From a virus, in IMG/VR virus record IMGVR_UViG_3300013101_002049, positions 64,001 through 128,000 of that record: a stretch of 64,000 nucleotides of DNA, one strand, 5' to 3'. Shown piece after piece: positions 33,594 through 63,302 of the stretch. The position numbers were made by a program, and so were the translations under genes. Below the pieces are notes generated by a model. That model searched no databases and was not told the origin of the DNA. It worked only from the letters and a program-made list of their open reading frames with translations. Position 1 is the stretch's first letter. Each line of letters starts with the position of its first letter.

Positions 33594-34724
33594 ATGGAAT
33601 TTACAATACCAGTTGAGACATTACAGAATGTTGTAAGCAGAATGTCTCATATAATTAAATTGACTTCTGATGATGTAACTAGTATGATGTCAATCGAAGT
33701 CTATGATGATAGAGTTAAGTTTTGTGGTACAGGTGGCGCAGTGCATGTAGTTATGACTGCAAGAGATTGTGAAATTACAGATAAAGGTAAAATTTTATTA
33801 CAGTTACGTGACGTTAGTAATTATGTAGGGAAATTTGTACCACTCAGCGATGGTTTTGGAACAGAAAGTTTTAAAATTATAGCGGATGACAGGGAGGGGT
33901 TTATCAAAACAAAAACACATTTTGTATCTGGAAAACCTTCCTATAGGAAGCTAAAATTTAAGACATTTAATACTGGATTACTACCAGCAATTAAAGATTT
34001 TGATGATGCTCAGTTAATCGTAAATAGTGATATTTTATTGGAAGGTCTTAGTAAAATTGTTCATTGTGTTGATCCAGGAGAAATACGTGAAGCTCTTGCG
34101 GGGGTATATATCGCAATAGATCAAGACAAAATAGTCTTTGCTGGTACAAATGGCATCAAATTAGCCGAAGCAAGATTAAATATTGTTGCAGATATAAAAC
34201 AAGCTCAATATGTTTTAAAGTTCTCTATGGCTAATGCGATGAAGCAGTTGTTAGACCATAATTCACAGGTATTTATGAAGTTCGAAGGTAAAGATGTTTA
34301 CATTAAGTGTAATGATGTGTATATTTCTGGTGGTTTAGTTTTGAATGAACCATATCCGGATTACAAATCTACATTAAAATCATACGAAAAGATTATATCA
34401 ATACCACGATATGATTTGGTTGATAGTGTATCAGCTTCTATCGGTGTTTTAGATCCTGAAGATAATAATCGTTTAACGATAAGATTTGAAGGTAATAAAA
34501 TGATGTTGAAGAACGATAGGGTAGAAGCTGTTCATGAATTTGATTATCAATTTGAGCATGATTTAGATGTGGATATAAATGGGTCTTATTTGTTGTCTAT
34601 GATTACTAATTTCATAGGTGAAAATTTAGAAATATGTTTTATTGATAACAACAAACCAATTATTTTTAGGTCTAAAGATAATCCTGATCATACCGCTTTG
34701 TTGATGTTATTAAGGAGACGTTAA
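33594..34724 (+). CDS. dnaN: DNA polymerase III beta-type sliding clamp
   Basis: 376 aa. MEFTI start; REALAGVYI..FAGTNGIKLA; YPDYK; INGSYLL; KPIIF..LLMLLR C-terminus. Confidence 0.85.
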   Translation: MEFTIPVETLQNVVSRMSHIIKLTSDDVTSMMSIEVYDDRVKFCGTGGAVHVVMTARDCEITDKGKILLQLRDVSNYVGKFVPLSDGFGTESFKIIADDREGFIKTKTHFVSGKPSYRKLKFKTFNTGLLPAIKDFDDAQLIVNSDILLEGLSKIVHCVDPGEIREALAGVYIAIDQDKIVFAGTNGIKLAEARLNIVADIKQAQYVLKFSMANAMKQLLDHNSQVFMKFEGKDVYIKCNDVYISGGLVLNEPYPDYKSTLKSYEKIISIPRYDLVDSVSASIGVLDPEDNNRLTIRFEGNKMMLKNDRVEAVHEFDYQFEHDLDVDINGSYLLSMITNFIGENLEICFIDNNKPIIFRSKDNPDHTALLMLLRRR

Positions 34725-35290
34725 TGATTGAAGATCAAACTAATTTATTTTCCGATGGGAAATCTATTGAAGAGGCTCGCATTGATGCTGCTAAAGATAT
34801 ATTGCTTGCGGCAGGATATCGTATAATTGATCCTATAATGATTAATGATCAGATAACAACACAAAAATGTTTGAGGGATTATTTTTATATGCGTTTGGAT
34901 TCTAAATATCCAAATAGACGTTTATTACGCCAGCCTAATATAAAATATGATATGCAGATGATTAGTCGATTTGTTAAATCTCAAATGGACGGTGCTAGTG
35001 AGAAACGTGCAATACAGGAATGTGTTAGAATTATTGATGCATTATTTAATTATGAGGAAGAATTTAATTTTAAATATCCTATATCTGATATAGGCATTTT
35101 AGGTCAAGGTAAATTGGCGTGGATTACAGAAAAAGCTCTTATAATTCTTGATAAAAAACGTCATGAGAAAATTGAAAAAGAAATGTATAAAAAAGCCGAT
35201 GAAATAGAAAATGCTTGTGATGTTGATGTGGAAGAAAGAATACGTAGTTTAGACGCTTTGTTAGAAAATATGGGGGCTAATAATGGTTAA
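34724..35290 (+). CDS. Hypothetical protein with an N-terminal clamp-binding-like motif (QTNLF)
   Basis: 188 aa ORF overlapping the dnaN stop codon (TAATG). Confidence 0.6.
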   Translation: MIEDQTNLFSDGKSIEEARIDAAKDILLAAGYRIIDPIMINDQITTQKCLRDYFYMRLDSKYPNRRLLRQPNIKYDMQMISRFVKSQMDGASEKRAIQECVRIIDALFNYEEEFNFKYPISDIGILGQGKLAWITEKALIILDKKRHEKIEKEMYKKADEIENACDVDVEERIRSLDALLENMGANNG

Positions 35291-36329: not shown

Positions 36330-36666
36330 GCAATCCAATGACATTTACGATTTGTTAGTTAAAACATTTCCATATAGTATAGTGAAAAAGGAATATTATA
36401 TTAAATACAAAGGGCAAAAATTGTTTTTTGATTTTTATGTCAAGGACTTTAATTTATTGTTTGAAGTTCAAGGTCGGCAGCATAGTGAATATGTAAGTCA
36501 TTTTCACGGCAATCGTCAGGGATTTCTGGAAACTAAACGGCGTGATAATCTCAAAATTCAGTATTGTCAAGAAAATGATTTGGATTTAATAACGATTAAC
36601 TATGATGAAGAAATAATTACATCAGATGAATTGATTGAAAAGATAAATAGTATATTGAGTCGATAG
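36322..36666 (+). CDS. Vsr/DUF559-like endonuclease
   Basis: LFFDFYV..LFEVQGRQH..RDNLKIQYC. Confidence 0.7.
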   Translation: MSKQSNDIYDLLVKTFPYSIVKKEYYIKYKGQKLFFDFYVKDFNLLFEVQGRQHSEYVSHFHGNRQGFLETKRRDNLKIQYCQENDLDLITINYDEEIITSDELIEKINSILSR

Positions 36667-36937: not shown

Positions 36938-37407
36938 TGAATATGCCTGATTATTTAAAGCGACGTTCAGAAGAACTTTTACTTGACAAGATGCCAAGGA
37001 ATGGACATATTATGGATGAAATATTTCAATTTGATGTAAGGAATTTGGAATCAACCACTTCGCTTAAAATAAGTCAGTTTGTTATTGGTTTATCTCAGTT
37101 TTTGATTTACTTTGGCTCACAGATTAACCAAACTAAAGTAGCATTGATGCGGAAACGTAATGTAATTGATTCATATATAGATAAATCTGATATAAAGGCT
37201 AGAACTAAAGCTGAAAAGCGCTGTAAGGTTATTGATTCTAATCCAGAATTACAGCAGATTGAATTGGGTATAGAATTAGCCGAACAAGAGTTAGCATTGG
37301 TTGAAAATAGAGAGAAGTATTTAATAGAATTAATTAATAGTTTTAAACGTGAACTGACTCGTCGCGAAAATGAATTAAAATTAATTAGAACTGAGAGAAG
37401 ATCATAA
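36937..37407 (+). CDS. Helical hypothetical protein, possibly a UvsY-like recombination mediator
   Basis: 156 aa with a coiled-coil pattern, lying between recA and dnaB. Function is inferred from size and context only. Confidence 0.45.
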   Translation: MNMPDYLKRRSEELLLDKMPRNGHIMDEIFQFDVRNLESTTSLKISQFVIGLSQFLIYFGSQINQTKVALMRKRNVIDSYIDKSDIKARTKAEKRCKVIDSNPELQQIELGIELAEQELALVENREKYLIELINSFKRELTRRENELKLIRTERRS

Positions 37408-38861
37408 TGAGTGAGGGTATCAAAAATTTATTTTGCCGTGCTATATATGAACGTGCAGTTTTAGCGTATTGTTTTAGATCAGCCGATAATTATTATACAA
37501 TTACGTCTATAGTTTCTGGTGATGATTTTCTTAGTCCTGAGCATAAACTTATTTTCACTATTTTAGGAACATTAATCAAGCGCGGCGTATCATCATTCGA
37601 TAGTACTTTGGTAATTAATGAGGCTAAAACTGATGGTGTTTTAAAGCAAGTTGGTGGATATGAGTATGTAGATGCTGTTATAGGTACAGATGTAAGTGAT
37701 GGTAATTTAGAATATTATGTTAAAAAATTACTTGATGCAAGCACGAAATACAAACTTTATAATCGCTTAAAAAAGCACTGCCGTACTTTAGAAGATAAAG
37801 CACAAGACGAAGATATCACTTCTGATAATTTGATGAATTTGGCTGAGTCAGATATTATGGATTTGTCGATGCAATCAAAGTTTGTTAAAGAACCCAAAAA
37901 TTTATCTGATGGTTTGGAAGAATATATTGAAGAGCGACGTAATAATCCGATTGAATATTGTGGTATTAGTAGTGGTTTTCCGATAGTTGATAAGCGCATA
38001 GATGGATTAGTTCCTGGAACATTACATGTTATTTGTGCTCGACCAAAAGAAGGTAAGAGTACGTTTTTATCTTGTGTAAGTTCCTATGTAGCTTATAATT
38101 TGCGTAAGCCGGTATTATACGTGGATACTGAAATGCCTTTTGAACAATGGCGAGATAGAATAGTTTCAATGCTTTCTGGTGTTCCTGAAAGACGTGTAAA
38201 ACATGGTGGATATAACGATGATGAATATGAACGTATATCAAAAGCATTAACTCTCATCAAAGGTAGTAAATTGTTCCATGAATTTATGCCTGGTTATGAT
38301 GTTGATAAATTAATATCAGTTTATAAAAAGTATAAGTATAAAGAAGATATTGGTTTAGCAGTCTTTGATTACATTAAAGCACCTTCTGGATCAGATTTTC
38401 AGAATAAGAAGGAGTATCAAATCATCGGCGATGTAACCACTGCATTGAAAGATTTGTCAGGTGAATTAGATATACCAGTATTGGCTGCTAATCAGATTAA
38501 TCGACAAGAAGATATTGCTGATAGTGATAGAGTATTGAGATATGCAGATGTTATAGCTTTTTTTCGAAGACGTACTGCTGAAGAGTTAAAGGATATTGAA
38601 GATAAATACGCGCCATTTCATAATGATTACGGTACGTATAAGTTGTGGATAAAAGAAAGTCGTAGGGGTGGTCATACACCACCCGACGGTATTGGGTTTT
38701 CATTTAAAAAACGAATGTTATTGGTGCATGAATCTAAGCGACAACTGATAGATTACGATAGTTCTGAATATAATGAAAAAGAGGAAGTTGAAGATGAACA
38801 CAGTACTCCAGATGCAACCGACAGCACAGTGGAGAAAGCCGATGGAAAGTCGTATTTCTAA
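37407..38861 (+). CDS. dnaB: Replicative DnaB-like helicase
   Basis: ERAVLA..DFLSPEHKLIF, GISSGFPIVDKRIDGL, ARPKEGKS, DTEM, VFDYI, LKDLSGELDIPVLAANQINR. Confidence 0.93.
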   Translation: MSEGIKNLFCRAIYERAVLAYCFRSADNYYTITSIVSGDDFLSPEHKLIFTILGTLIKRGVSSFDSTLVINEAKTDGVLKQVGGYEYVDAVIGTDVSDGNLEYYVKKLLDASTKYKLYNRLKKHCRTLEDKAQDEDITSDNLMNLAESDIMDLSMQSKFVKEPKNLSDGLEEYIEERRNNPIEYCGISSGFPIVDKRIDGLVPGTLHVICARPKEGKSTFLSCVSSYVAYNLRKPVLYVDTEMPFEQWRDRIVSMLSGVPERRVKHGGYNDDEYERISKALTLIKGSKLFHEFMPGYDVDKLISVYKKYKYKEDIGLAVFDYIKAPSGSDFQNKKEYQIIGDVTTALKDLSGELDIPVLAANQINRQEDIADSDRVLRYADVIAFFRRRTAEELKDIEDKYAPFHNDYGTYKLWIKESRRGGHTPPDGIGFSFKKRMLLVHESKRQLIDYDSSEYNEKEEVEDEHSTPDATDSTVEKADGKSYF

Positions 38862-39864
38862 AGAGGAGTTTAATTATAGATTAACACGGTTACAGGAAGC
38901 CGTAGATGCTGAACAGTTGTTGCGTTTATTGGGTTTTCAAATAACTCGTGTAACTGAAAGAGAAGTACGTGCCCCATGTGCTGTTCATGGTGGTGATAAT
39001 AAAACGGCGTTTAGAATGAATAAAGATACTAAAAGATGGGTGTGTTTTTCTCATCAATGCCACGAAGATATTGGATTCGGTGTAATCGATTTAGTAAAAC
39101 ATATGCTAAATATGAATTTTGCTGAAGCGGTCAAATATTTAGAAAGTATTACTGGTATAGATATTCATGATGAATCTGACTATGTTGAATATCAACGACA
39201 AAAAGAACGACAGGAAGTTATACATCAAGCTGATAATCGTAAAATACCACTAGCATTAATTGATGAGTCGTTTTTAAATAGTTTCGGGAAGTTTAGATCT
39301 GATTATTTTGAACACGAAGAAAATGGTGGTTTTTCAAAAGAATTATTAGATCTATTTGAAATAGGTGGTGGTTACGTTGATAAATTTGGATTTCAACGAG
39401 ATGTTATACCAATACACGATGTTAATGGTAGATTATTAGCATACAGTGCTCGAGATATTACTGGAAAAGCGGATTATGATTATAAGTATTTACTAACTGA
39501 AGGATTTGACAAAGATAAAGTTTTATATAATCTGTTTCGAGCAAAAGATTATATGACAGAATCTCGTATTATTATTGTTGTTGAAGGGTTTAAATCTGTT
39601 TGGAATTTACATCGATCAGGATATAAAAATGTTGTTGCGTGTATGGGTAGTACTATTACATCTGGACAACAGAATTTATTATATAAACATGCTTTTAAAG
39701 TAATAACTTTATTTGATGGGGATGAAGCAGGCATCAAAGGTACTCTTAGGGCTTTGAATGATATGAAAGGTAAGATAGATATAATACCACTATTTATACC
39801 ATATGCTGAAAAAGATCCAGGAGATCTTACTATAAACGAACTACATGGTATTTTAAGGAGATAG
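38797..39864 (+). CDS. dnaG: DNA primase (zinc finger plus TOPRIM); start uncertain (38773, 38797 or 38842)
   Basis: CAVHGGDN..WVCFSHQC, KYL, LYNL, IVVEGFKSV, LFDGDEAG, KDPGD. Confidence 0.9.
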   Translation, partial: NTVLQMQPTAQWRKPMESRISKEEFNYRLTRLQEAVDAEQLLRLLGFQITRVTEREVRAPCAVHGGDNKTAFRMNKDTKRWVCFSHQCHEDIGFGVIDLVKHMLNMNFAEAVKYLESITGIDIHDESDYVEYQRQKERQEVIHQADNRKIPLALIDESFLNSFGKFRSDYFEHEENGGFSKELLDLFEIGGGYVDKFGFQRDVIPIHDVNGRLLAYSARDITGKADYDYKYLLTEGFDKDKVLYNLFRAKDYMTESRIIIVVEGFKSVWNLHRSGYKNVVACMGSTITSGQQNLLYKHAFKVITLFDGDEAGIKGTLRALNDMKGKIDIIPLFIPYAEKDPGDLTINELHGILRR

Positions 39865-44691: not shown

Positions 44692-45810
44692 ATGGAGATA
44701 CGGGGTATTAAATATGTAGGCCCTATATTTGATGTGTCTGGTTATGGGCAAGCAGCTAGAGGGTATGCTTTGTCATTACATAAATTGGGAATTCCTTTGA
44801 CTATTGATTCTGTATCTTTTGAAGAGGGGTTGGCTGATTTTGGAGAAACTAGTCGTATTTTAGCTCCTCTTGTAGATAAAAATATAGATTATAATATAGT
44901 AATTATCCATCTAACTGCTAATTTATTTTGTTCTAAGGCTGAACCTGGTAAAATGAATATAGGTTATTTTGTGTGGGAAACCGATAAAGTTCATGAGGAA
45001 TGGGTGGAAGAGGCCAATAAAAGTGTAAGTTTTGTGATGACTGCTTCTCAATGGGGAGCAGATATATTTAGAAAATCTGGTATAACTGTGCCGGTGGCTG
45101 CTATTCCTCATGGGATTGATGCTGATGAATTTGTTGATGTTGACCCATATACTGTTGCTGGTGTAAAACAGAATGCTTATAAATTTTATGGAATATTTCA
45201 ATTTACTGAACGTAAGCACCCGATGGCATTAATTAAATCATATTGGAGTGCTTTTCAAAATAATGAAAATGTAGCTCTTATTTTGAAAACGTATCGTAAT
45301 GGATTTGCGGATAGTGAAAAAGAGGCTATACGAGCAACAATAAAAAGATTAAAAAAAGTAACTAATATGCCTATATACCCACCTATATATTTAATATCTG
45401 AACGTTTGGATAGATCTGAACTATTAGGACTTCATAAAACATGTGATTGTTTGGTTCATTTGGATCGTGGGGAAGGTTTTGGTTTGGTGCCTTTTGAAGC
45501 TGGTGTATGCGGCAATCCTATATTAATTACTGGATGGGGCGGTGCACTAGAATATGCTAAGGAAGATAATAGTTATTTAGTTAATTATACTCTTACGCCA
45601 GTATTTGGCATGCCTTGGTCACCATGGTATTCTGGAAATCAGTTATGGGCTGAACCGGATTGTGGCCACGCGATTGAATTACTGCGTGAAATTTATAATA
45701 ATCAGGGTGAAGCACGTATCCGTGGTGAGAAACTGAAACAATATATTATTGATAATTTTAGTTGGGAAAATGTTGGTAGTAAAATAATAGAAACAATAAA
45801 GTCTTTGTAG
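44692..45810 (+). CDS. GT4-like glycosyltransferase
   Basis: SGYGQAAR, WETD, IPHG, ERK, RGEGFGLVPFEA. Confidence 0.88.
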   Translation: MEIRGIKYVGPIFDVSGYGQAARGYALSLHKLGIPLTIDSVSFEEGLADFGETSRILAPLVDKNIDYNIVIIHLTANLFCSKAEPGKMNIGYFVWETDKVHEEWVEEANKSVSFVMTASQWGADIFRKSGITVPVAAIPHGIDADEFVDVDPYTVAGVKQNAYKFYGIFQFTERKHPMALIKSYWSAFQNNENVALILKTYRNGFADSEKEAIRATIKRLKKVTNMPIYPPIYLISERLDRSELLGLHKTCDCLVHLDRGEGFGLVPFEAGVCGNPILITGWGGALEYAKEDNSYLVNYTLTPVFGMPWSPWYSGNQLWAEPDCGHAIELLREIYNNQGEARIRGEKLKQYIIDNFSWENVGSKIIETIKSL

Positions 45811-45820
45811 GAGATTAGAA

Positions 45821-46738
45821 ATGAATGTAATAATGAGACCAGTTTGGAATAGACCTGAGATGCTTTATTTATCAATGGAAGCTGAGCTGGAAGCTCGTAA
45901 GCACCATGAGTTTTCGAATGATTTACTAACAGTTTTTGTTTTGGATCATGGGTATAATGAAAAAGTATTAGAAATAGTTGAGAGTTATCCTGAGCCAAAA
46001 AAAATTATTAAAAGACAAAAGCGCTTAGGCTTAACCGTTAATATACTTGAAGGTATGAAAGAATCATTTACACATGCTGATGATTACATTATTTATATAG
46101 AAGATGATATGGTGGTGCACAAGACTTATTTTCAGTTTTTGGATGTACTTATGAATTTAGTAAAACCAGAAGAATATTCTGTGATTATAGGTCATAGTAA
46201 AGGTATTCAGAACAAAGGCCGCAAAAATTTTGATCCTCCTAATGTGGATTTAAATGTGGTGGTGAAAGACCATGTGTATGCAGCTTTCGCTAGTTTGATA
46301 AGAAAAGAATTTTTTAATAATTATATTTTACCTTGTATTGGACCGACGTATTATAAAAATTTTGGTACGAGAGATAAATTTGTCACTGCTTTGGGAACTA
46401 AATATCAACAAGATAAGCGATTTAAATATAAAGGTAAATCTATGCATGCTCATAATGAGCAAGCTGGTTTAATTAATCGTTTGGTTGATGTAGCATTAAT
46501 TGAAGAAGGTAAATGTACTTTAAGACCTGTTGCTACAAGAACTATACATATAGGAGTGTATGGAAAAAATCGACCTGGCAATATACCTGGGAAAGATTTT
46601 AACGAACGGCTATCATTACTTAGACATGCGGTAGAAAACAATAAGTTGTATGATTTAACTAGATCTAAACAATATGATGACTATGAAGGATTTTCGCCGA
46701 GATTAGATGAATGGGATGGGACTTTATATGTCAAATAG
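45821..46738 (+). CDS. GT-A fold glycosyltransferase
   Basis: PVWNRPEML, GLTVNILEG, IIYIEDD, HIG. Confidence 0.7.
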   Translation: MNVIMRPVWNRPEMLYLSMEAELEARKHHEFSNDLLTVFVLDHGYNEKVLEIVESYPEPKKIIKRQKRLGLTVNILEGMKESFTHADDYIIYIEDDMVVHKTYFQFLDVLMNLVKPEEYSVIIGHSKGIQNKGRKNFDPPNVDLNVVVKDHVYAAFASLIRKEFFNNYILPCIGPTYYKNFGTRDKFVTALGTKYQQDKRFKYKGKSMHAHNEQAGLINRLVDVALIEEGKCTLRPVATRTIHIGVYGKNRPGNIPGKDFNERLSLLRHAVENNKLYDLTRSKQYDDYEGFSPRLDEWDGTLYVK

Positions 46739-47600
46739 AATACTTTTTTGTACTGGTGAAGGCGTTGGAAATGTTATTCAAACTATACCTGTACTTCGTA
46801 CTTTAAGAGAATCACTAGGGGTTAAAATAGATTTTTGGTATGTTTATGGTACTTTTCAATTGCCTAAGATAATTCCATATGTTGATAAATGGATAGTTGG
46901 CAATCAGATTCGAAACATGGATATGAATAGATATGTTGGCGCTGTATCTACTAAATGGACAAGGAAGCATATTAAAAATTTACCTATTCCTATTCTAAAT
47001 AAGATTTCTGATTTAAGTATGGTAAGATCAGAAGTCGATTGTTATATGGATATTGCACGAAGTTTAAAAGTAAACGATGAGGATTTATTATGGTGGGGTA
47101 AATGTAATTATAATAGATCTGACGAATTTTATGATGTAGTGATACATAACGGTTATAATTTTAAAGGATCTTCTGATTGGAAGTTAAAAAGTTATCCAAG
47201 ATATAAAGAAGTGGTGAAATTATTATCTGGAGATGTATCTTTATGTTCAGTGGGCAGTAAAGGTGAACATATTAAAGGTACGATAGATAAAACCGGTTTG
47301 AATATTCTAGATAGTTTAGGCATAATTAAAAATGCTAAAGTATTTTTGGGTAATGATAGCGGATTATATCATTGTGCGAATGCATTAGATGTGCCAAATT
47401 TAGTGATATTTACTTATACGTCTACAGAAAAAAATTATGACAAAAGATTTCATAGAAAAGCTAAAATAATATGCAGGAAAGATTTAGAATGTAGATGGTG
47501 CCAATGTGAACCAAGATTTAAAACCTGTAAGACAAGAGAATGTAGAAATATAGAACCTAAATTGATAGTAGATGTTGTATTGGAGAAATTAAATGGATAA
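46728..47600 (+). CDS. GT9 (heptosyltransferase-like) glycosyltransferase
   Basis: GVGNVIQTIP and FLGNDSGLYHCANALDVP, with a C-terminal Cys cluster. The ATG at 46728 is the likelier start. Confidence 0.8.
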   Translation: MSNRILFCTGEGVGNVIQTIPVLRTLRESLGVKIDFWYVYGTFQLPKIIPYVDKWIVGNQIRNMDMNRYVGAVSTKWTRKHIKNLPIPILNKISDLSMVRSEVDCYMDIARSLKVNDEDLLWWGKCNYNRSDEFYDVVIHNGYNFKGSSDWKLKSYPRYKEVVKLLSGDVSLCSVGSKGEHIKGTIDKTGLNILDSLGIIKNAKVFLGNDSGLYHCANALDVPNLVIFTYTSTEKNYDKRFHRKAKIICRKDLECRWCQCEPRFKTCKTRECRNIEPKLIVDVVLEKLNG

Positions 47601-48273
47601 ATGTTTGGGTTTTGGTGGACTTGGTGATTGTTTTATAGTAGGATTAAAATTGATGGAATATCCTAATGAATATGTATATGTGCATATAGATAATTCTAAA
47701 TCAAGATTAACATCTTCTATGTATTTAATGGAACATTTAGGTATACCTGCTATTGGGAAGGTAGTAAAAAATATTAAACGGTGGTGGTATACAAACCATA
47801 ATCAATTTGATAAATGTTTTAATGTGTTTGCTAATGGGTATATTGATATACCAAAAAGGGATTACCATTGGGAACCTTGTAGAGATGAAGGATATAAAAA
47901 TCCATATAGAAAAGAATTAAAAACGAAAACAGATTTTATAGCAGTACAAATTAATTCTGGTGGGCAGAGAAGTTATAAATATAAGCCAATAATTGAATAT
48001 GTTTATGCAAATTATGATAGAAATAAAATACTATGGTTTGGCACTGATACAGAATTTCATGCTGAATATGGAACAAATTATTGTGGGAAAATAGATTTTA
48101 TTTCAGCGTTAGAAAAAATATCTGAATGTAAATATTTTGTTGGTTTTAATAGTGTGTTACTTTATTGGTCATTGTGGAATAAATTAGATTGTTTTTTATT
48201 TACAGATCATCAAGGTAAAGAGGATTTACGAATACATAAAGAGTGGAAAAAACATTTGGAGTTTGATATATGA
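47593..48273 (+). CDS. Divergent GT9-like glycosyltransferase
   Basis: GGLGDC and NYCGKIDF...YFVGFNS. Confidence 0.5.
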   Translation: MDKCLGFGGLGDCFIVGLKLMEYPNEYVYVHIDNSKSRLTSSMYLMEHLGIPAIGKVVKNIKRWWYTNHNQFDKCFNVFANGYIDIPKRDYHWEPCRDEGYKNPYRKELKTKTDFIAVQINSGGQRSYKYKPIIEYVYANYDRNKILWFGTDTEFHAEYGTNYCGKIDFISALEKISECKYFVGFNSVLLYWSLWNKLDCFLFTDHQGKEDLRIHKEWKKHLEFDI

Positions 48274-48905
48274 AAATTCTTATAATAGGCTTTCAACGAG
48301 GTGGTACTACATTACTTAGGCGATTGATGCATAATCATCCGGATGTACAATGTATGATTCATGAGAAGCGCATTTTAAATCGTAAAGATAATGGGGAATC
48401 GTTATTAAATGATTTAGACATAGATAAAACTGGAAATTGGGGTGAGAAAGTACCGTGGAATTCTTCAGATGGATCTGAAATAATAATTTATGGTAAGAAA
48501 TGGTTAGAAGAATTCGGGGATGAAGCCAGGATAGTTCATATAGTAAGACATCCGGTTGATAGTGGGTTGTCAAATCAAAGACTTGGTTGGATGCAACTAA
48601 ACAGAGCTGTGGATAATGCTCAAAAATCTATACCTTTAGTAATAAACGCTTTTAAAAATGATAATAGATATTTGGCTATTGCTTTTGAAGATTTAGTTAC
48701 TAATCCAGAAAAAGTATTGAAAAAAATATTTAAGTTTTGCGTACTTAATGATGACGGGGCTTCCAGAGATATAAGTAATTTAAAAAAGAAAGATTTAAGA
48801 TACTATGATGGTATAAAAGCTAGTAAAGCATATGAATATAAAAAGGTAGATAATTTGAATTGTAAAATACCTGATTATAGTAAAATACTGGAGTTAATAA
48901 AATGA
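48270..48905 (+). CDS. Sulfotransferase family protein
   Basis: PAPS-binding loop IIGFQRGGTTLL..HPDV, WGEK.P, IVRHP.D, FEDLVTNP. Confidence 0.85.
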   Translation: MKILIIGFQRGGTTLLRRLMHNHPDVQCMIHEKRILNRKDNGESLLNDLDIDKTGNWGEKVPWNSSDGSEIIIYGKKWLEEFGDEARIVHIVRHPVDSGLSNQRLGWMQLNRAVDNAQKSIPLVINAFKNDNRYLAIAFEDLVTNPEKVLKKIFKFCVLNDDGASRDISNLKKKDLRYYDGIKASKAYEYKKVDNLNCKIPDYSKILELIK

Positions 48906-49879
48906 AGTATTTAATGTTGCGTGGCCAGGTACCAATTGATCGTGATCCAAAAGAGATAGTATTTGAATATTTAGAAGACATTGATGATGTTTGGACACAA
49001 TTATTTTATGCTATATTAGATAAGGATGATGAAGGTGAATTATGGTATTGGGGTGGTACACGAGAAAAAAAATTTACAGCGAATTTTGTAGAGCGCTGGG
49101 TACCAAATTATGACCAATACAAGACGAGTTTTATTCCTGATGTAATATTTTGTCGTGGGGGATTTCCAGAATATCATGTAGTTCTTCGAAGATTTCCTAA
49201 CTCTATAAAGATTTATTATGGGGCTGGTAGAAGATTTTTACCCCAACCCGGTTTTTATGATTATGATATCATTTTGCAAGATTCACCAGAACAAGTACTG
49301 GAATGTCGAGAAAAATTTCCTAAAGCATTGACTACATTATTTATTAAGCCAGCGGCTGATAATATATTTTATCCGATGCCTCATATTAAAAAAGAATATG
49401 ATATTTGTTTTCCTGCTAATGCGGCTCAAACTTTTAAAGGTCATAAATTTGTGTATGACACTGTGCCAAGTGATATGACATTGTTAAATCTTGGTAATCG
49501 AAATGATAGATATAAGTACCCAGCCAATGTTACTTCTTATAGAGTGTTAAGACCCAAAATGGCTGAAAATATAGCTAAATGTAAAGTGGGTATAGTAGCA
49601 GTTCAAAGTGAAATAGATTCATGCCCTAGAGTAATTCCAGAAATGTTAGCATGCGGCATTCCTATTGTCGCACTTGATAGAGTCCGGTTTTGGCGAGATA
49701 AATATATAGTCACTAGTGTTACTGGTGAATTAACTACGTTGAATAAATTCTGGATAAAAGTAAGATTTGTACTTGATAATTTAGAAGAGTATGTACCGAG
49801 AAAATATTATGAAAATAATTTATCACTTGACTATGCTGCTAGATTTATAAAGGAGAAGATAAATGAAGTTAGCATTTAA
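48902..49879 (+). CDS. GT-B glycosyltransferase
   Basis: KGH and DSCPRVIPEMLACGIPIV. Confidence 0.75.
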   Translation: MKYLMLRGQVPIDRDPKEIVFEYLEDIDDVWTQLFYAILDKDDEGELWYWGGTREKKFTANFVERWVPNYDQYKTSFIPDVIFCRGGFPEYHVVLRRFPNSIKIYYGAGRRFLPQPGFYDYDIILQDSPEQVLECREKFPKALTTLFIKPAADNIFYPMPHIKKEYDICFPANAAQTFKGHKFVYDTVPSDMTLLNLGNRNDRYKYPANVTSYRVLRPKMAENIAKCKVGIVAVQSEIDSCPRVIPEMLACGIPIVALDRVRFWRDKYIVTSVTGELTTLNKFWIKVRFVLDNLEEYVPRKYYENNLSLDYAARFIKEKINEVSI

Positions 49880-50813
49880 CGGATTAAATAGCGGATTAGG
49901 TAATAATGGTGGATCAAGAACAATTATTAAATGTTGTGAAGTTTTAAATAGTTTGGGACATAGTTGTGATATAATTGCTAATGTAGATAATTTTTCATGG
50001 TTTGATCATAAACCAGTTATAAATTATTTACCAACCAATTTGGATGCCATTATTTCAATAGCTGCTGTAGATGTACCACTTACTTTAAGAATAGCAGTCC
50101 CAGTTAAAGCTTGGTATATTAGAGGACATGAATCATGGGCTAATCCAGAGCATCTTTTGGTGGATTATTATAAAAATGAAAATATTTTGAATGTAGTAAA
50201 TTCAAATGGACTTAAACAATTATTGTCTACGTGGGGCGCTGATTCCTATGTCATTTATCAAGGCATTGATTTTGATTGGTGGGAAGATAGAAAGTTACGT
50301 AAGGATGGTATAATACGTATAGGATGTTTATACGGATCAAAACTTACTAAACGTTGGCAAGATTTTGTTAAACTTCATAGCATACTTGGTGATGAAAAAT
50401 ATGAATACGTATCTATTGGAGACGTTAAACCTAAATCGAATTTTATAAAAAAATCATGGGCTAATATAAATCATGATGAACTTTGTAATGTTTATAGTTC
50501 TTGTGATATATGGTTTGCACCTACTGAACTAGAAGGTCTTCATAATGTTCCTATTGAGGCTGCTCTATGTGGATGTTTGATAGTGTGTGGTGATGAGCCT
50601 ATGAATGGGATGATATATGATTATGCTTTTCCTAATAATACCGCAATGGTTTATGACAGGAAAGACATTAAGCATGCTGCTGAACTTATTAAAAATCCTA
50701 ATTGGGAATTAATTGGTAGAATGCAAAAACATATTAAAGAAAATATAGGATCACGCGAGACTAATATAAAGAAACTTGTGAAGTTATTGGAGATGACTGA
50801 TGAAACTATATAA
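49863..50813 (+). CDS. GT4-like glycosyltransferase
   Basis: NGGSRTI and VYSSCDIW..EGLHNVPIEAALCGC. Confidence 0.8.
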   Translation: MKLAFNGLNSGLGNNGGSRTIIKCCEVLNSLGHSCDIIANVDNFSWFDHKPVINYLPTNLDAIISIAAVDVPLTLRIAVPVKAWYIRGHESWANPEHLLVDYYKNENILNVVNSNGLKQLLSTWGADSYVIYQGIDFDWWEDRKLRKDGIIRIGCLYGSKLTKRWQDFVKLHSILGDEKYEYVSIGDVKPKSNFIKKSWANINHDELCNVYSSCDIWFAPTELEGLHNVPIEAALCGCLIVCGDEPMNGMIYDYAFPNNTAMVYDRKDIKHAAELIKNPNWELIGRMQKHIKENIGSRETNIKKLVKLLEMTDETI

Positions 50814-59496: not shown

Positions 59497-61482
59497 ATGA
59501 TAAAGAAGAGAAGGAAAGGTGATTTAAATGTTGCATATCGACCTTACCGCATTGATGAGGTATTTGGTCATGATCGTATAAAAAATATGATCTCGGGATA
59601 TTTAGAAAATGCTACATTACCACATGCCTCATTGTTTACTGGACCAGCAGGTTGTGTGGATTGCGATACTGAATTTTTTACTGGTTATGGTTGGAAAAAG
59701 ATTTCCGAATACACTGATGGTGATTTAGTAATGCAGTATGATACTGCTACTAAGATAGCATCGTTAGTTAAACCGTTTAGGTATATAAAGAAGCCAGTAG
59801 ATAAATTATTTCATTTTAAAACTAAATATGGATTGGATCAGTGTTTAAGTAAAGATCATAGGGTATTATATTCATTACGAAAAAGTGGTTTACATACTGA
59901 TAGTTTTGAGTCAATAATAAACACACACAATACTAATAAGTATGGTTTTAATGGTAAATTTTTAACATCGTTTAATTTAGATGCATCTGCTGGTATTGAT
60001 ATGTGTTCCGCGGATTTACGTGTAATGGTTATGATAATTGCTGATGCAACTATTGACCCTAATAGAACAAAGTGTTGTCTTAATTTAAAAAAGAAAAGAA
60101 AAATAGAACGTGCTCATAAATTATTAAACGAGGCAGGTATTGAATATTCTACATTAACCCAGGGTGATTATACACGATTTTATTTTATACCTCCAATTAG
60201 AACTAAGGAATTTGATAGTTACTTTTATGGTTGTAATGCCAATCAATTAGAGACTATATCATCTGAGGTGGTTTTGTGGGATGGTGATCAAAATAATATT
60301 TTCTTTACAACATCTAAACAAAGTGCAGATTTTATACAATATGCATTTACTGCTTCTGGTTATAGAGCTTCGATAAATATTGATGATAGGCGAATAAATA
60401 ATAGGTCTATTACTTACAGGGTTATCAGATCTACTAGTACTGTTTGCGGATTTAGTACTGTGGCCGATAGAAAGACTGTTATTTCTGAATATACACCAAT
60501 AGATGGTTATCAATATTGTTTTACAGTTCCATCATCTTATTTAGTACTTAGAAGAAATAATTGCATATTTATAACTGGTAATTGTGGTAAAACGACTTTT
60601 GCTAGGATAGTTGCTTTAGGTTTGAATTGTGAAACAGGTGTTACATCTAATCCATGTTGTGAATGTTCTACATGTAAAAGTATTATAGCATTGAATAGTC
60701 TTTCAGTATTAGAGTTAGATGGTGCAAGAACAGGAAATGTTGATACTGTCAAACGTGTATTAAATGATTTACCCGCGGCTCCCTTTGGTAATGATAGAGT
60801 GCGGGTATTAATTCTTGATGAGGCGCATAAACTTAGTGACGCCGCAGAGGATTCCCTCCTAAAGTTTTTAGAAGACACACCTGCTCATGTGTATATTATA
60901 TTATGTACCAATGAGCCTCAAAAACTTAAAGAAGCCATTCGACAGCGTTGTAAAATGATTCAATTTAGTAGATTGGAGCGCAAACCTATATATGAGTTAT
61001 TAGAACAAGTTGCGCAGTTTGAAGGTATGAATTATAACTCAAAAATTCTTAATAAAATTACTGAGGAATGCGAAGGGACACCGCGTATAGCGTTGTCTTT
61101 TTTACAGCAGATTAATGCTGAAGGTAGTTGGACGAATGAAGCGGTTGGTTTTATTTTAAGTGCTGGCCTCGAAGCAGATCAACAAGAAGTTATAGATATG
61201 TGTAGATTGTTAGTTAAGAATCATGGCCAATGGCAACCAGTTCAAAATATTTTTTTGAAGTTGGTTAAAAAAATTCCAGTAGAAACTATGCGTATAGCGG
61301 CTACTGGATTTTTATCTGGATGTTTTAAGAGATCGACTTCCATTGAAGATGCAACTCGTTACGCTAAATGTGTAGAGTTAGTTGGGCAGTTATATTATGG
61401 ACCTAAGCCCGAGCATATGTTATTGATGAAATTGTTTCGGAGTTATAATATTATACATTCGGGGAAGGATATATGGACATAA
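59497..61482 (+). CDS. dnaX: DnaX (gamma-like) clamp-loader subunit containing an intein
   Basis: YRP...EVFGH, Walker A GPAG|CGKTT, Zn motif LNC..PCCECSTC, DEAH, LLKFLE, QRC; 351 aa extein. Confidence 0.92.
   Translation: MIKKRRKGDLNVAYRPYRIDEVFGHDRIKNMISGYLENATLPHASLFTGPAGCVDCDTEFFTGYGWKKISEYTDGDLVMQYDTATKIASLVKPFRYIKKPVDKLFHFKTKYGLDQCLSKDHRVLYSLRKSGLHTDSFESIINTHNTNKYGFNGKFLTSFNLDASAGIDMCSADLRVMVMIIADATIDPNRTKCCLNLKKKRKIERAHKLLNEAGIEYSTLTQGDYTRFYFIPPIRTKEFDSYFYGCNANQLETISSEVVLWDGDQNNIFFTTSKQSADFIQYAFTASGYRASINIDDRRINNRSITYRVIRSTSTVCGFSTVADRKTVISEYTPIDGYQYCFTVPSSYLVLRRNNCIFITGNCGKTTFARIVALGLNCETGVTSNPCCECSTCKSIIALNSLSVLELDGARTGNVDTVKRVLNDLPAAPFGNDRVRVLILDEAHKLSDAAEDSLLKFLEDTPAHVYIILCTNEPQKLKEAIRQRCKMIQFSRLERKPIYELLEQVAQFEGMNYNSKILNKITEECEGTPRIALSFLQQINAEGSWTNEAVGFILSAGLEADQQEVIDMCRLLVKNHGQWQPVQNIFLKLVKKIPVETMRIAATGFLSGCFKRSTSIEDATRYAKCVELVGQLYYGPKPEHMLLMKLFRSYNIIHSGKDIWT
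59653..60582 (+). mobile_element. Intein (310 aa) in the DnaX Walker A motif, with a degenerate LAGLIDADG-like region
   Basis: Starts CVDCDTEF, has block B LSKDHRV and YCFTVPS, and ends FITGN followed by Cys. Confidence 0.9.
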
Positions 61483-63302
61483 GTTATGATAATGGATTGC
61501 CGGACCTTCCGCCACCAAATTATCAATACATTACAAATACTGAAGAAGCTTTAAAAGTATTACCTGAAATTGAAAGGTACGATTTGATTGAAGTGGATAC
61601 AGAGACAACTGCTTTGGATCCATTTATGGCGAAAATAGTACTAATTCAAATAGGCGTGCTTGGTAAATCTTACGTGTTTGATGTTCGTGATGGTAATGTT
61701 CGTGCGGAAGTTTTGAAATCGTTATTAGAAGGCGATGGTTCTTTAAAACTTTTACAAAATGCTGCTTATGATTTTGAGGTACTAAAAACTAATTTTGATA
61801 TCGAGTTAAATCGTATTTATGATACAATGTTAGTTGAACAGTTGTTGTATTTAGGATTACATCAGAAAGCAAGTTTGGACCATTTAGTTGGTAAATATTT
61901 ACATATGAAGATGCCTAAAGATATTGCAACTTCGTTTGTTAATTATCATCAAAAATATCAAGAATACCAACTTAGATACGCGGCGAATGATGTTTCAGTT
62001 TTGCGTGACATTTATAACATGCAGATGCCTAAGTTACGTCAAGATGGTTTGATGCGAGTTGCTAAATTAGAATTTGATTTTATTAAACCATTAGCAGAAA
62101 TGGAATTAAATGGAATGTTGTTAGATGTTCCTCAATGGCGTAATATTCTTAATGATATGGTTGTTGAAAGAGATAGATTACGTATTCAGTTAGGAAGTGT
62201 ATTTGAAGATACTATTGATCAGACTACGTTATTTGGTGTATCATTGATGAATTTAGATAGTCCTGCACAGGTTATTAAAGGGCTACAAAAAGTAGGTGTT
62301 TATGTTGATAGTACGGATGTTAAGGAGTTAAATAAACATAAGAAAAATCCAGTTGTAAAATTGTTATTGGAATATCGTAAATATGAAAAGTTCATCACTA
62401 CATATGGTGAGCCGATGATTGATCGTATTCATCCAAAGACTGGTAGATTACATACCAAATTTAAGCAGATGGTTGACACTGGTAGAATGAGTTCTTCAAA
62501 TCCTAATTTACAAAATATTCCAAAAGAGCAGAAATATAGGTCTTGTTTTATCGCTCGACCAGGGTATAAGATTATTACGTGTGATATGAGCGCCGCGGAA
62601 CTTCGTATCATTGCTAATTTGTCACGTGATCCATTATGGGTTAAGATATTTAACGAAGGTGGTGATTTACATACTGTTTCTGCTGCTGGTATTTATGGAA
62701 TATCTGAAGATGAAGTAATGGCTGATAAAAAACTGGATGATGAAGATCCAAATAAAAAGAATTATAGATCTAATTCCAAACCTATTTCTTTTGGTTTGGC
62801 TTATGGACTTTCAGAACATGGATTGTCTTTACGTCTTGGTATTTCTAAAGATGAAGCTAAAAAGATGATTTTGAATTATTTTAAAAAATATCCTTTAGTT
62901 CATAAATTTTTGGAAGAATCTGGTCGTAATGCTGTGTTGAATAGATTTTCTGCATCTATTAGTGGGCGCAGACGGTATTATACTTTACCTGACCCCACTG
63001 ATCCAGATTTTAAGAAAATTCGTGGTGCTATTGAAAGGCAAGGTAAAAATATGCCAATTCAAGCGGCAAATGCTGATACAATAAAACAAGCCATGATTCA
63101 TGTTACTGAAAGAATTAAACCGTATGATGCTCGTTTGTTATTAACGGTGCATGATGAAGTTATAGTTGAAGCTCGAGAGGATCAAGTAGAAGAAGTTAAA
63201 CCTATTGTAGAACAATCTGTTAAAGACGGGTTTGATGATTTTTTCGAGTTAGTTAAAATGAAAGCTGGCGCTGATGTAGCTAATCATTGGGTGAAAGGGT
63301 AG
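61473..63302 (+). CDS. polA: Family A DNA polymerase (3'-5' exonuclease plus polymerase; no 5'-3' nuclease domain)
   Basis: DTETT, QNAAYD, YAAND; TGRMSSSNPNLQNIP; motif A DMSAAELR, motif B R..SKPISFGLAYG, motif C VHDE. Confidence 0.95.
   Translation: MDISYDNGLPDLPPPNYQYITNTEEALKVLPEIERYDLIEVDTETTALDPFMAKIVLIQIGVLGKSYVFDVRDGNVRAEVLKSLLEGDGSLKLLQNAAYDFEVLKTNFDIELNRIYDTMLVEQLLYLGLHQKASLDHLVGKYLHMKMPKDIATSFVNYHQKYQEYQLRYAANDVSVLRDIYNMQMPKLRQDGLMRVAKLEFDFIKPLAEMELNGMLLDVPQWRNILNDMVVERDRLRIQLGSVFEDTIDQTTLFGVSLMNLDSPAQVIKGLQKVGVYVDSTDVKELNKHKKNPVVKLLLEYRKYEKFITTYGEPMIDRIHPKTGRLHTKFKQMVDTGRMSSSNPNLQNIPKEQKYRSCFIARPGYKIITCDMSAAELRIIANLSRDPLWVKIFNEGGDLHTVSAAGIYGISEDEVMADKKLDDEDPNKKNYRSNSKPISFGLAYGLSEHGLSLRLGISKDEAKKMILNYFKKYPLVHKFLEESGRNAVLNRFSASISGRRRYYTLPDPTDPDFKKIRGAIERQGKNMPIQAANADTIKQAMIHVTERIKPYDARLLLTVHDEVIVEAREDQVEEVKPIVEQSVKDGFDDFFELVKMKAGADVANHWVKG

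What the first reader, a model, noticed from the sequence alone, without database searches (positions are those of the whole stretch)
62220..62234. Beta-clamp-binding-type motif QTTLF in the thumb of a family A polymerase, with a phage-encoded clamp and loader
Seen: EDTIDQTTLFGVSLMNLDSPAQV, with QTTLF just before the conserved thumb N-x-x-S-x-x-Q motif. dnaX overlaps polA, and dnaN, dnaB and dnaG are also in the window. Known: QxxLF resembles the QL[S/D]LF beta-clamp-binding consensus, and T7 DNA polymerase carries its thioredoxin-binding processivity insert in this part of the thumb. Inference: a hybrid replisome in which a Pol I-type enzyme gains processivity from a DnaN ring loaded by DnaX, a role normally played by family C polymerases.
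Basis: partly seen in the sequence, partly recalled or inferred. Interest (0 to 1): 0.7.

Follow-up and report, generated by a model that had tools for sequence, protein, structure and literature searches.

The report
Clamp-docking peptide on phage PolA thumb
A large uncultivated phage's Pol I-type DNA polymerase carries a strictly conserved sliding-clamp docking peptide (QTTLFGV) on the flexible thumb-tip loop where phage T7 polymerase binds thioredoxin; since the phage also encodes its own bacterial-type clamp and loader but no other polymerase, it probably replicates with a polymerase/clamp pairing that has been proposed from gene content but never mapped or tested at the bench.

Summary
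QTTLF is residues 250-254 of a 609-aa PolA (3'-5' exonuclease plus polymerase), 10 residues before N-L-D-S-P-A-Q. It lies in an ~11-residue insertion between thumb helices H and H1. T7 gp5 carries its thioredoxin-binding domain at this site.

It is not chance. Q250 and F254 are invariant and T252, L253, G255, V256 and S257 are ≥90% conserved in 64 homologues, while the flanks vary. In 126 representatives (≤50% mutual identity), 59 have Q..[LM]F at this site, against 0.0017 expected. Canonical QLSLF and QLDLF recur there. E. coli Pol III alpha's internal clamp motif reads QADMFGV.

In near-complete relatives PolA is the only polymerase found. Each has one short DnaX next to polA and a DnaN that keeps the core peptide-pocket residues. 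A conserved gene after dnaN starts with MIEDQTNLF and may be a second clamp client.

Some complete phages have the motif but no detectable clamp, so they may use the host clamp.

No binding was tested. PolA+beta+gamma replicases were proposed in 2011. I found no paper that maps a thumb-loop motif. This scan has reported the same feature on other genomes.

The parts
62220..62234 (+). QTTLF, PolA residues 250-254: core of the putative beta-clamp-binding motif
   Evidence: Q250 and F254 are invariant and L253 is 92% conserved in 64 homologues.
62214..62261 (+). Thumb-tip loop, PolA residues 248-263, between helix H (219-247) and helix H1 (264-273). It holds the extended conserved motif Q-x-T-L-F-G-V-S-L (250-258).
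   Evidence: AF2 model: non-helical, pLDDT 63-74 against 91 overall. Mean entropy is 0.59 bits for 250-258 against 2.36 for 238-249. In the alignment T7 gp5's large insertion falls at this site.
61473..63302 (+). polA: family A DNA polymerase with a 3'-5' exonuclease domain and no 5'-3' exonuclease domain, 609 aa
   Evidence: Pfam, PDB sequence search, fold search. Exo motif residues D42, E44, Y169, D173 and pol motif residues D371, R432, K436, F440, Y444, H560, D561, E562 are invariant, and exo residue D100 is at least 90% conserved.
59497..61482 (+). dnaX: clamp-loader ATPase (gamma-like). It overlaps the polA start by 10 nt. The extein is 351 aa.
   Evidence: PF13177 2.6e-25. It is the only DnaX-type match in the record and in four near-complete relatives, and it lies next to polA where coordinates were compared (window; G010).
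59653..60582 (+). 310-aa intein inside the DnaX Walker A motif (GPAG | C...GN | CGKT)
   Evidence: Sequence. Relatives have intein-free DnaX of 358-369 aa.
33594..34724 (+). dnaN: phage-encoded beta sliding clamp, 376 aa
   Evidence: Three beta-clamp Pfam domains; phrog_947 processivity factor 8e-27; PDB beta clamps to 4e-12. The equivalents of E. coli pocket positions R152, T172, G174, L177, P242, N320 and V360 are kept.
34724..35290 (+). ORF188: conserved gene directly after dnaN, function unknown, possible second clamp client
   Evidence: A homologue lies next to dnaN in 24 of 24 DnaN-positive relatives. No informative fold match.
34736..34750 (+). QTNLF, ORF188 residues 5-9: N-terminal clamp-binding-like motif in a disordered tail
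   Evidence: One of only 3 Q..[LM]F in the record. F9 is at least 90% conserved and the consensus is M..DQ.D.F..GK in 33 homologues. pLDDT is 47 for residues 1-10. The motif fades in more distant homologues.
37407..38861 (+). dnaB replicative helicase
   Evidence: PF03796 and PF00772
38773..39864 (+). dnaG primase
   Evidence: Toprim, DNAG_N and CHC2 zinc-finger domains

Best explanation
PolA is this phage's replicative polymerase. It gains processivity by docking onto the phage's own DnaN ring through a short linear motif, Q250-T-T-L-F-G-V-S-L258. The motif sits on a flexible ~11-residue loop inserted at the thumb tip between helices H and H1. DnaX, after its intein splices out, loads the clamp at primed sites made by DnaG behind DnaB. 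PolA on the primer end then puts L253 and F254 into the hydrophobic subsite of the clamp's peptide pocket, and Q250 into the polar subsite near the conserved Asn (E. coli N320 equivalent). This tethers the thumb, which already lies over the exiting duplex, to the ring. It is a clamp-based answer to the problem that T7 gp5 solves at the same loop with thioredoxin. Shown here: the motif, its position, its conservation, its recurrence as canonical QLSLF/QLDLF in distant PolAs, the gene content, and the absence of other polymerases in near-complete relatives. Inferred: binding, which clamp is bound, loader composition, and any gain in processivity.
For: (1) Position. The AF2 model (pLDDT 91) has helix 219-247, a loop 248-263 at pLDDT 63-74, and helix 264-273. 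Against Klenow the loop is an insertion before FNLSS. T7 gp5's ~80-residue insertion aligns to the same gap before FNPSS. The literature says the TBD precedes helix H1 (PMC10201439).
(2) Conservation. Q250 and F254 are invariant and T252, L253, G255, V256 and S257 are at least 90% conserved in 64 homologues of 50-90% identity. Entropy is 0.59 bits against 2.36 in the preceding flank.
(3) Site-specific enrichment. 108 of 111 close homologues and 59 of 126 representatives have Q..[LM]F within 20 residues before NxxSxxQ. The background is 0.0017-0.0034 per window.
(4) Match to the known consensus. QLSLF, QLDLF, QMSLF and QVDLF occur at the same site in distant PolAs. E. coli DnaE's internal motif reads 920-QADMFGV-926, against QTTLFGV here.
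(5) Gene content. DnaN was found in 24 of 35 close-clade viral records, including every one at least 60% complete. One short DnaX was found in each of the four near-complete relatives checked. No PF07733 or PF00136 match was found in G010, G020, G025, G027 and G035, and no PF07733 match in the window's own record.
(6) The phage clamps keep the core pocket positions, including the Asn that hydrogen-bonds the motif's Gln in the Mtb clamp-peptide crystal structure.
(7) The only other conserved Q..LF in the record is the disordered N-terminus of the gene fused head-to-tail to dnaN.
(8) Geometry. In the Mtb PolI-clamp cryo-EM structure the thumb touches the clamp.
Against: The conserved stretch runs beyond a classical pentapeptide (G-V-S-L, then N-L-D-S-P), which could reflect a structural role. 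The 9-residue window ranks only 57th of 601 for conservation in the protein. Motif-bearing PolAs occur in 95-100% complete phages with no detectable DnaN or DnaX (G039, G040), so either the host clamp is used there or the loop does something else. Phage clamp pocket positions overall are not clearly more conserved than the rest of the protein (entropy 1.6 against 1.78). No delta or delta-prime was found. The window's own record is only ~57% complete.
Confidence: 0.7

Rival explanations
1. The conserved loop is an intrinsic thumb element, for example a small hairpin that packs on the thumb or grips the duplex. It has no clamp role. DnaN and DnaX then serve something else, such as capturing host Pol III, repair, recombination or late transcription.
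For: Conservation extends past the pentapeptide (G255, V256, S257, L258). DSSP shows two bridge residues in the loop. DLFG-type loops occur in complete phages without a detectable clamp or loader. Clamps are used for transcription by T4 and by Mu (PMC12867686, listed).
Against: The loop has the lowest confidence of the polymerase domain although it is nearly invariant, which is typical of a docking peptide. Cellular Pol I enzymes and some phage PolAs do without it. The variants converge on the clamp consensus QL[SD]LF rather than on an arbitrary hydrophobic pattern. No other polymerase is present to use the clamp in near-complete relatives.
Confidence: 0.17
2. The motif is a true clamp-binding motif, but its partner is the host's beta clamp. 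The phage DnaN would have a separate client, such as ORF188 or another factor.
For: Distant PolAs from phages without their own clamp carry canonical QLSLF at the same site (L059-L061, L066). G035 has DnaN but no DnaX, which shows that host and phage parts can be mixed.
Against: In the clade with its own divergent clamp the motif is fixed as Q-x-T-L-F-G-V-S-L, not as canonical QLSLF, as expected for adaptation to a private clamp. Every close relative that is at least 60% complete carries dnaN; dnaX was found in the four near-complete ones checked.
Confidence: 0.1
3. The match to Qxx[LM]F is a chance resemblance in an unconstrained linker.
For: A pentapeptide of this looseness is expected by chance in roughly one protein in ten of this length (own estimate from residue frequencies).
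Against: Q and F are invariant across 64 homologues while the flanks vary. Enrichment at this site is about 275-fold in diverse representatives. Only 3 occurrences exist in 50,158 residues of the record.
Confidence: 0.02

Closest known systems
T7 gp5 DNA polymerase with its thioredoxin-binding domain
   Same: It is a family A replicative phage polymerase. Its processivity element is inserted in the same thumb loop, between helix H and helix H1, just before the F-N-x-S-S motif.
   Different: T7 has a ~76-80-residue folded insertion that recruits host thioredoxin. Here an ~11-residue loop carries a linear Qxx[LM]F peptide, and the presumed partner is a DnaN ring that needs a loader.
PolA + polIII-beta + polIII-gamma replicases predicted for phages Ma-LMM01 and RSL1 (Kazlauskas & Venclovas 2011, PMC3201878)
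   Same: A large phage with a family A polymerase, a bacterial-type clamp and one clamp-loader ATPase. The authors suggested the clamp serves PolA, and they asked what completes the loader.
   Different: That proposal rested on gene content alone and mapped no docking motif. The Ma-LMM01 and RSL1 PolAs are very distant from this one (E 2.8e-5 and 6.6e-13), and a simple pattern scan found no thumb motif in them.
Internal clamp-binding motif of E. coli Pol III alpha (920-QADMFGV-926) and the QL[SD]LF / Qxx[LM]F consensus
   Same: The pattern is the same, Q-x-x-[LM]-F-G-V, and the motif is internal rather than terminal in a replicative polymerase.
   Different: It sits in a family C polymerase, in a different domain context, not in a thumb loop of a family A enzyme.
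Mycobacterium tuberculosis Pol I clamp-binding motif 457-QLSLLDD-463 (Sharma & Nair 2026, bioRxiv 10.64898/2026.09.19.751633)
   Same: A family A polymerase that binds DnaN through a QLSL-type peptide. In that structure the thumb also makes a second, dynamic contact with the clamp.
   Different: The motif lies between the vestigial exonuclease and polymerase domains, not in the thumb loop. It is reported as confined to Mycobacteriales, in a repair and Okazaki-processing enzyme rather than a sole replicase.

Membership tests
Bacterial beta-clamp-binding motif (Qxx[LM]F / QL[SD]LF) | The sequence fits the consensus: Q at position 1 and a hydrophobic pair at positions 4-5 | tested here: met
   QTTLF. 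Relatives read QLSLF, QLDLF, QATMF and QNVMF at the same site. Compare E. coli DnaE QADMFGV.
Bacterial beta-clamp-binding motif (Qxx[LM]F / QL[SD]LF) | The motif is conserved among orthologues more than its surroundings | tested here: met
   Q250 and F254 are invariant. Entropy is 0.59 bits against 2.36 in the flank. Enrichment at the site is about 275-fold.
Bacterial beta-clamp-binding motif (Qxx[LM]F / QL[SD]LF) | It lies in an exposed, flexible segment that can reach the clamp pocket | tested here: inconclusive
   It is a non-helical loop with pLDDT 63-74 at the thumb tip.
Bacterial beta-clamp-binding motif (Qxx[LM]F / QL[SD]LF) | A cognate clamp with an intact peptide pocket is available | tested here: met
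   A phage DnaN is present. The equivalents of R152, T172, G174, L177, P242, N320 and V360 are kept across 14 phage clamps.
Bacterial beta-clamp-binding motif (Qxx[LM]F / QL[SD]LF) | Physical binding to the clamp that is lost when the hydrophobic pair is mutated | not testable with these tools
   This needs a bench assay or multimer modelling.
Family A DNA polymerase with proofreading (Pol I large-fragment type) | Exo I-III and Pol A, B, C motifs plus the Klenow-like fold | tested here: met
   Pfam, Klenow 1e-64, Z 35-38 over ~550 residues. All of the catalytic residues are conserved across the 64 homologues, nearly all invariant.
T7-like PolA with thioredoxin-binding domain | A folded insertion of at least 50 residues at the thumb tip before helix H1 | tested here: not met
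   The insertion here is ~11 residues, although at the same site.
Bacterial Pol III holoenzyme-type replicase | A family C polymerase (DnaE or PolC) as the clamp's client | tested here: not met
   No PF07733 match in the 150-kb record or in four relatives that are 86-100% complete. The window's own genome is only ~57% complete.
Bacterial Pol III holoenzyme-type replicase | A beta clamp and a DnaX ATPase | tested here: met
Bacterial Pol III holoenzyme-type replicase | Delta and delta-prime loader subunits | tested here: not met
   PF06144 and PF13177 match only the dnaX gene itself. Divergent subunits cannot be excluded.
Mycobacteriales-type Pol I clamp-binding motif | A QLSLLDD motif between the exonuclease and polymerase domains | tested here: not met
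   The motif here is in the thumb loop of the polymerase domain.

The most novel reading that the evidence does not exclude
The thumb-tip Qxx[LM]F loop is a general, previously unmapped processivity device of a very large and diverse clade of phage family A polymerases. Giant phages pair it with a private DnaN, a short DnaX and a conserved dnaN-linked partner (ORF188, a new clamp-associated protein). Smaller phages with the canonical QLSLF version and no clamp gene use it to hijack the host's beta clamp. Evolution would then have solved PolA processivity at one thumb loop in two independent ways: thioredoxin in T7 and the sliding clamp here.
Probability: 0.4. Interest if true: 0.78.

Novelty: new variant of a known kind. 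Interest (0 to 1): 0.62.

Why it matters
Bacterial sliding clamps are textbook partners of family C, B and Y polymerases. Whether and how Pol I-type enzymes use them has been disputed for E. coli and was only recently resolved for mycobacteria, at a different site. A conserved docking peptide at the thumb tip gives a concrete, mutable handle (LF to AA) for testing the long-standing proposal that giant phages run a PolA-clamp-gamma replicase. It also explains how a Pol I-type enzyme could copy a genome estimated at about 260 kb. It suggests that many phage PolAs depend on a clamp, phage or host, which matters for phage-host specificity and for clamp-targeting inhibitors. Finally, it offers compact processivity modules for engineered polymerases, as the T7 thioredoxin-binding domain did.

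Tried and rejected
- **Genome context of distant homologues.** IMG/VR loci were used instead.
- **Ma-LMM01 and RSL1.** Their PolAs are too divergent for a reliable thumb alignment, and a pattern scan found no Q..LF there. This says little. PF02768 also fails to detect the published Ma-LMM01 clamp, so 'no DnaN' in G039-G042 is weak negative evidence.
- **Cultured relatives.** All INPHARED PolA matches are at or below 33% identity. Bacillus phage Mgbh1 lacks the insertion. Pseudanabaena phage PA-SR01 has KKDLFG without Q and no PF02768 match. Four other fetched PolAs (Clo-PEP-1, LP-013, IAS virus, MD-2021a) were not analysed because the script stopped.
- **ORF188 function.** Fold searches gave nothing above noise (best Z 5.9; BFVD E ≥ 0.03). 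A T4 gp62-like or delta-like role stays speculation. Its N-terminal motif is clear only in the nearer relatives.
- **Covariation.** No pattern was visible by eye between motif variants and clamp C-termini.
- **Pocket conservation.** As a whole the pocket is not clearly above the protein average.
- **Accessibility and complex modelling.** Neither was possible with the tools.
- **Literature.** Six full-text searches found no description of a thumb-loop clamp motif in phage PolAs. Absence from this library does not prove that it is unpublished.
Full report
**Observation.** The window is bases 64001-128000 of a 150,128-bp IMG/VR virus record that CheckV rates about 57% complete. GC content is 34%. 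The ORF at 61473-63302 (+) encodes a 609-aa protein, and nucleotides 62220-62234 read QTTLF (residues 250-254).

The protein is a family A polymerase with a 3'-5' exonuclease domain and no 5'-3' exonuclease domain:
- PF01612 4.9e-25 and PF00476 2.4e-81.
- Klenow fragment 1e-64.
- The AlphaFold2 model (mean pLDDT 91, pTM 0.89) superposes on Pol I large fragments at Z 35-38 over about 550 residues.
- Among 64 homologues, exonuclease residues D42, E44, Y169 and D173 and polymerase residues D371, R432, K436, F440, Y444, H560, D561 and E562 are invariant, and D100 is at least 90% conserved.

- dnaX lies at 59497-61482 and overlaps polA by 10 nt.
- dnaN is at 33594-34724, recA at 35283-36329, dnaB at 37407-38861 and dnaG at 38773-39864.

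**Where the motif sits.** In the model, helix 219-247 is followed by a non-helical stretch, 248-263. Its confidence is the lowest in the polymerase domain (block means 74 and 63). Helix 264-273 follows.
- Against Klenow, N-L-D-S-P-A-Q corresponds to F-N-L-S-S-T-K-Q. Klenow has only 'EE' where this protein has EDTIDQTTLFGVSL, so the loop is an insertion of about 11 residues.
- I aligned T7 gp5, taken from the T7 genome record. Its ~80-residue insertion falls in the same gap and ends at V-V-F-N-P-S-S-R-D-H.
- Czernecki et al. 2023 state that the T7 thioredoxin-binding domain sits on the thumb tip and precedes helix H1 (PMC10201439).

**More than chance.** I estimate that a pattern as loose as Qxx[LM]F would occur by chance in about one protein in ten of this length. 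Its conservation is what decides the matter.
- Among the 120 closest database homologues (49-97% identity), a pattern scan found Q-x-x-[LM]-F exactly 10 residues before the N of NxxSxxQ in 108 of 111 with a recognisable anchor.
- In a 64-sequence alignment, Q250 and F254 are invariant. T252, L253, G255, V256 and S257 are at least 90% conserved, while residues 238-249 vary freely. Mean entropy is 0.59 bits against 2.36, and the protein mean is 1.26.
- An exhaustive HMMER search of 1.84 billion cluster representatives returned 150 PolAs of 33-74% identity to the query (all but one at 59% or below), each no more than 50% identical to the others. Of 126 with an anchor, 59 carry strict Q..[LM]F within 20 residues upstream. 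The expectation elsewhere in the same proteins is 0.0017 per window.
- The consensus there is Q-x-[TS]-[LM]-F-[GDE]. Textbook clamp motifs appear at this site: QLSLF (P0138, P0154, P0231), QLDLF (P0159), QMSLF and QVDLF. They also appear in viral contigs: QLSLF in L034-L038, L055, L059-L061 and L066.
- The internal clamp-binding motif of E. coli Pol III alpha, read from the MG1655 genome, is 920-QADMFGV-926. The phage loop is QTTLFGV.

**Gene content of relatives.** Eighty related viral loci were fetched.
- In the close clade (PolA at least 44% identical, all with the motif), a Pfam beta-clamp model found DnaN in 17 records. A profile built from the phage clamps found 7 more. That makes 24 of 35, including every record at least 60% complete (G009, G010, G019, G020, G025, G027, G036).
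- Those without a match are fragments (4-54% complete).
- In G010 (100%), G020 (86%), G025 (87%), G027 (89%) and the more distant G035 (100%, terminal repeats) there is no family C polymerase and no family B polymerase.
- The window's own record has no family C match either.
- The four near-complete close relatives and the window's own record each have exactly one DnaX-type gene of 358-369 aa (351-aa extein here). It lies next to polA in the window and in G010, where coordinates were compared.
- The delta model matches only that same gene.
- PolA is thus the only recognisable polymerase available to use the clamp. The loader is a single short gamma-like ATPase with unknown partners.

**The clamp.**
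- The window's DnaN matches solved beta clamps (best 4e-12) and PHROG 'processivity factor' (8e-27).
- I aligned 14 phage clamps with E. coli beta, read from the MG1655 record. They keep the hydrophobic subsite and key polar positions of the peptide pocket: R152 (R in 11 of 14), T172, G174 (G or A), L177, P242 (invariant), N320 (N in 12 of 14) and V360 (L or Y).
- H175, R176, R246, V247, S346 and M362-P363 vary.
- In the Mtb clamp-peptide crystal structure, the motif's Gln hydrogen-bonds the Asn equivalent to N320. Taken as a whole the pocket is not clearly more conserved than the rest of the protein (1.6 against 1.78 bits).

**A second candidate client.**
- Scanning all + strand ORFs of the 150-kb record (50,158 residues) for Q..[LM]F gave only three hits. 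They are PolA; a QKKLF inside a 7,531-aa ORF, which is probably chance; and the N-terminus MIEDQTNLFS of a 188-aa ORF (34724-35290). That ORF's start overlaps the dnaN stop.
- Its 33 database homologues share M-x-x-D-Q-x-D-x-F-x-x-G-K, with F9 at least 90% conserved.
- Its first ten residues are predicted to be disordered (pLDDT 47).
- A homologue lies directly downstream of dnaN in 24 of 24 DnaN-positive relatives and in none of three distant phages.
- The N-terminal motif is clear in the nearer relatives (QLDMF, QRDLF, QGALF). It is degenerate or absent in distant ones.
- Fold searches gave no informative match, so its function is open. It may be a clamp-associated factor, possibly a loader accessory.

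**What does not fit neatly.**
- PolAs with the loop motif also occur in phages with no detectable DnaN or DnaX. G039 is 95% complete and reads TQGNLFG. G040 is 100% complete and reads DRDLFG. G041 reads QLSLF and G042 reads QTNMF.
- G035 has DnaN but no DnaX.
- Either these phages borrow the host clamp and loader, or the loop has another role. Clamp detection is also imperfect, because PF02768 misses the published Ma-LMM01 clamp.
- Conservation extends beyond the pentapeptide, and exposure was not computed.

**Mechanism proposed (inferred).** DnaB and DnaG prime the template. Spliced DnaX loads DnaN. PolA binds the primer end, and its thumb-tip loop inserts L253/F254 and Q250 into the clamp pocket. 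This tethers the thumb to the ring over the exiting duplex. The Mtb PolI-clamp cryo-EM structure shows that a family A thumb can touch the clamp. I put this at about 0.7. A purely structural loop gets about 0.17, host-clamp rather than phage-clamp docking about 0.1, and chance about 0.02.

**Comparison with what is known.**
- Kazlauskas and Venclovas (2011) proposed from gene content that PolA works with polIII-beta and polIII-gamma homologues in Ma-LMM01 and RSL1. They asked what completes the loader, and they mapped no motif. Their 2016 survey adds nothing on this point.
- The 2023 reclassification of family A polymerases discusses thumb insertions and processivity but not clamps.
- A 2026 preprint maps a QLSLLDD motif in M. 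tuberculosis Pol I between the exonuclease and polymerase domains. That is a different site and a different biological role.
- Six full-text searches found no description of a thumb-loop clamp motif in phage PolAs.
- I therefore class it as a new variant of known kinds: clamp-binding motifs, T7-style thumb-tip processivity inserts, and the predicted PolA-clamp replicase.

**Earlier notes of this scan.** The same kind of feature has been reported on several other genomes. Those notes agree with what I found, and all claims here were tested independently on this window.

Noticed in passing
window 59653-60582 (within dnaX 59497-61482): A 310-aa intein splits the DnaX Walker A motif (GPAG | C...ITGN | CGKT). 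The extein is 351 aa, like the intein-free 358-369-aa DnaX of relatives. Clamp loading would depend on protein splicing.
   Followed up: partly
window 42244-44691: An 815-aa GT4-type glycosyltransferase interrupted by an intein with a LAGLIDADG homing endonuclease (Intein_splicing 1.7e-16, LAGLIDADG_3 1.5e-9). This is an unusual host gene for an intein. Many PolA homologues of this clade also carry inteins (lengths ~1040 aa).
   Followed up: no
window 42244-58853: A sugar and glycosylation cluster of about 16 kb sits inside the replication module. It holds several GT1, GT2 and GT9 glycosyltransferases, a sulfotransferase, hexapeptide acyltransferases, a methyltransferase, UDP-GlcNAc 2-epimerase, a PIG-L deacetylase, a GFO/IDH/MocA oxidoreductase, a PfkB kinase and a cytidylyltransferase-cupin fusion. 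It may make a nucleotide-sugar for DNA or virion glycosylation.
   Followed up: no
window 4064-5992: A 642-aa protein with Mom-family (2.1e-8), CapR and REase_MTES_1575 domains. It is a candidate DNA-modification enzyme.
   Followed up: no
window 34724-35290: ORF188 is always directly downstream of dnaN in 24 of 24 related records. It has a disordered N-terminal DQxDLF-type motif in the nearer relatives, a conserved C-terminal LDALLxKMEANNG tail and no fold match. It is an uncharacterised partner of phage beta clamps.
   Followed up: partly
window 13179-20006, 26386-30453; record G000:C1:28607-51202 (upstream of the window): Giant ORFs of 2,275 aa (F5/8 type C and laminin-G domains) and 1,355 aa (five laminin-G_3 repeats), and a 7,531-aa ORF just upstream of the window. 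They are presumably fibre or adhesin proteins.
   Followed up: no
window 36322-36666: A free-standing HNH or homing endonuclease gene between recA and dnaB (phrog_559 5.8e-19).
   Followed up: no
P0003 (97% PolA homologue) and P0304 (ORF188 homologue): Public records label these contigs as Asgard archaeal MAGs (Candidatus Asgardarchaeum californiense; Hodarchaeales). With a fully bacterial-type replisome (DnaB, DnaG, DnaN, DnaX, RecA), this looks like phage contigs mis-binned from sediment metagenomes. The host is unknown.
   Followed up: no
L053 / G035 (80,224 bp, terminal repeats, 100% complete): A much smaller complete phage has a PolA with NQMDLF at the thumb loop and a cellular-like DnaN (PF02768 2e-13). 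It has no DnaX, which suggests a phage clamp loaded by the host loader.
   Followed up: partly
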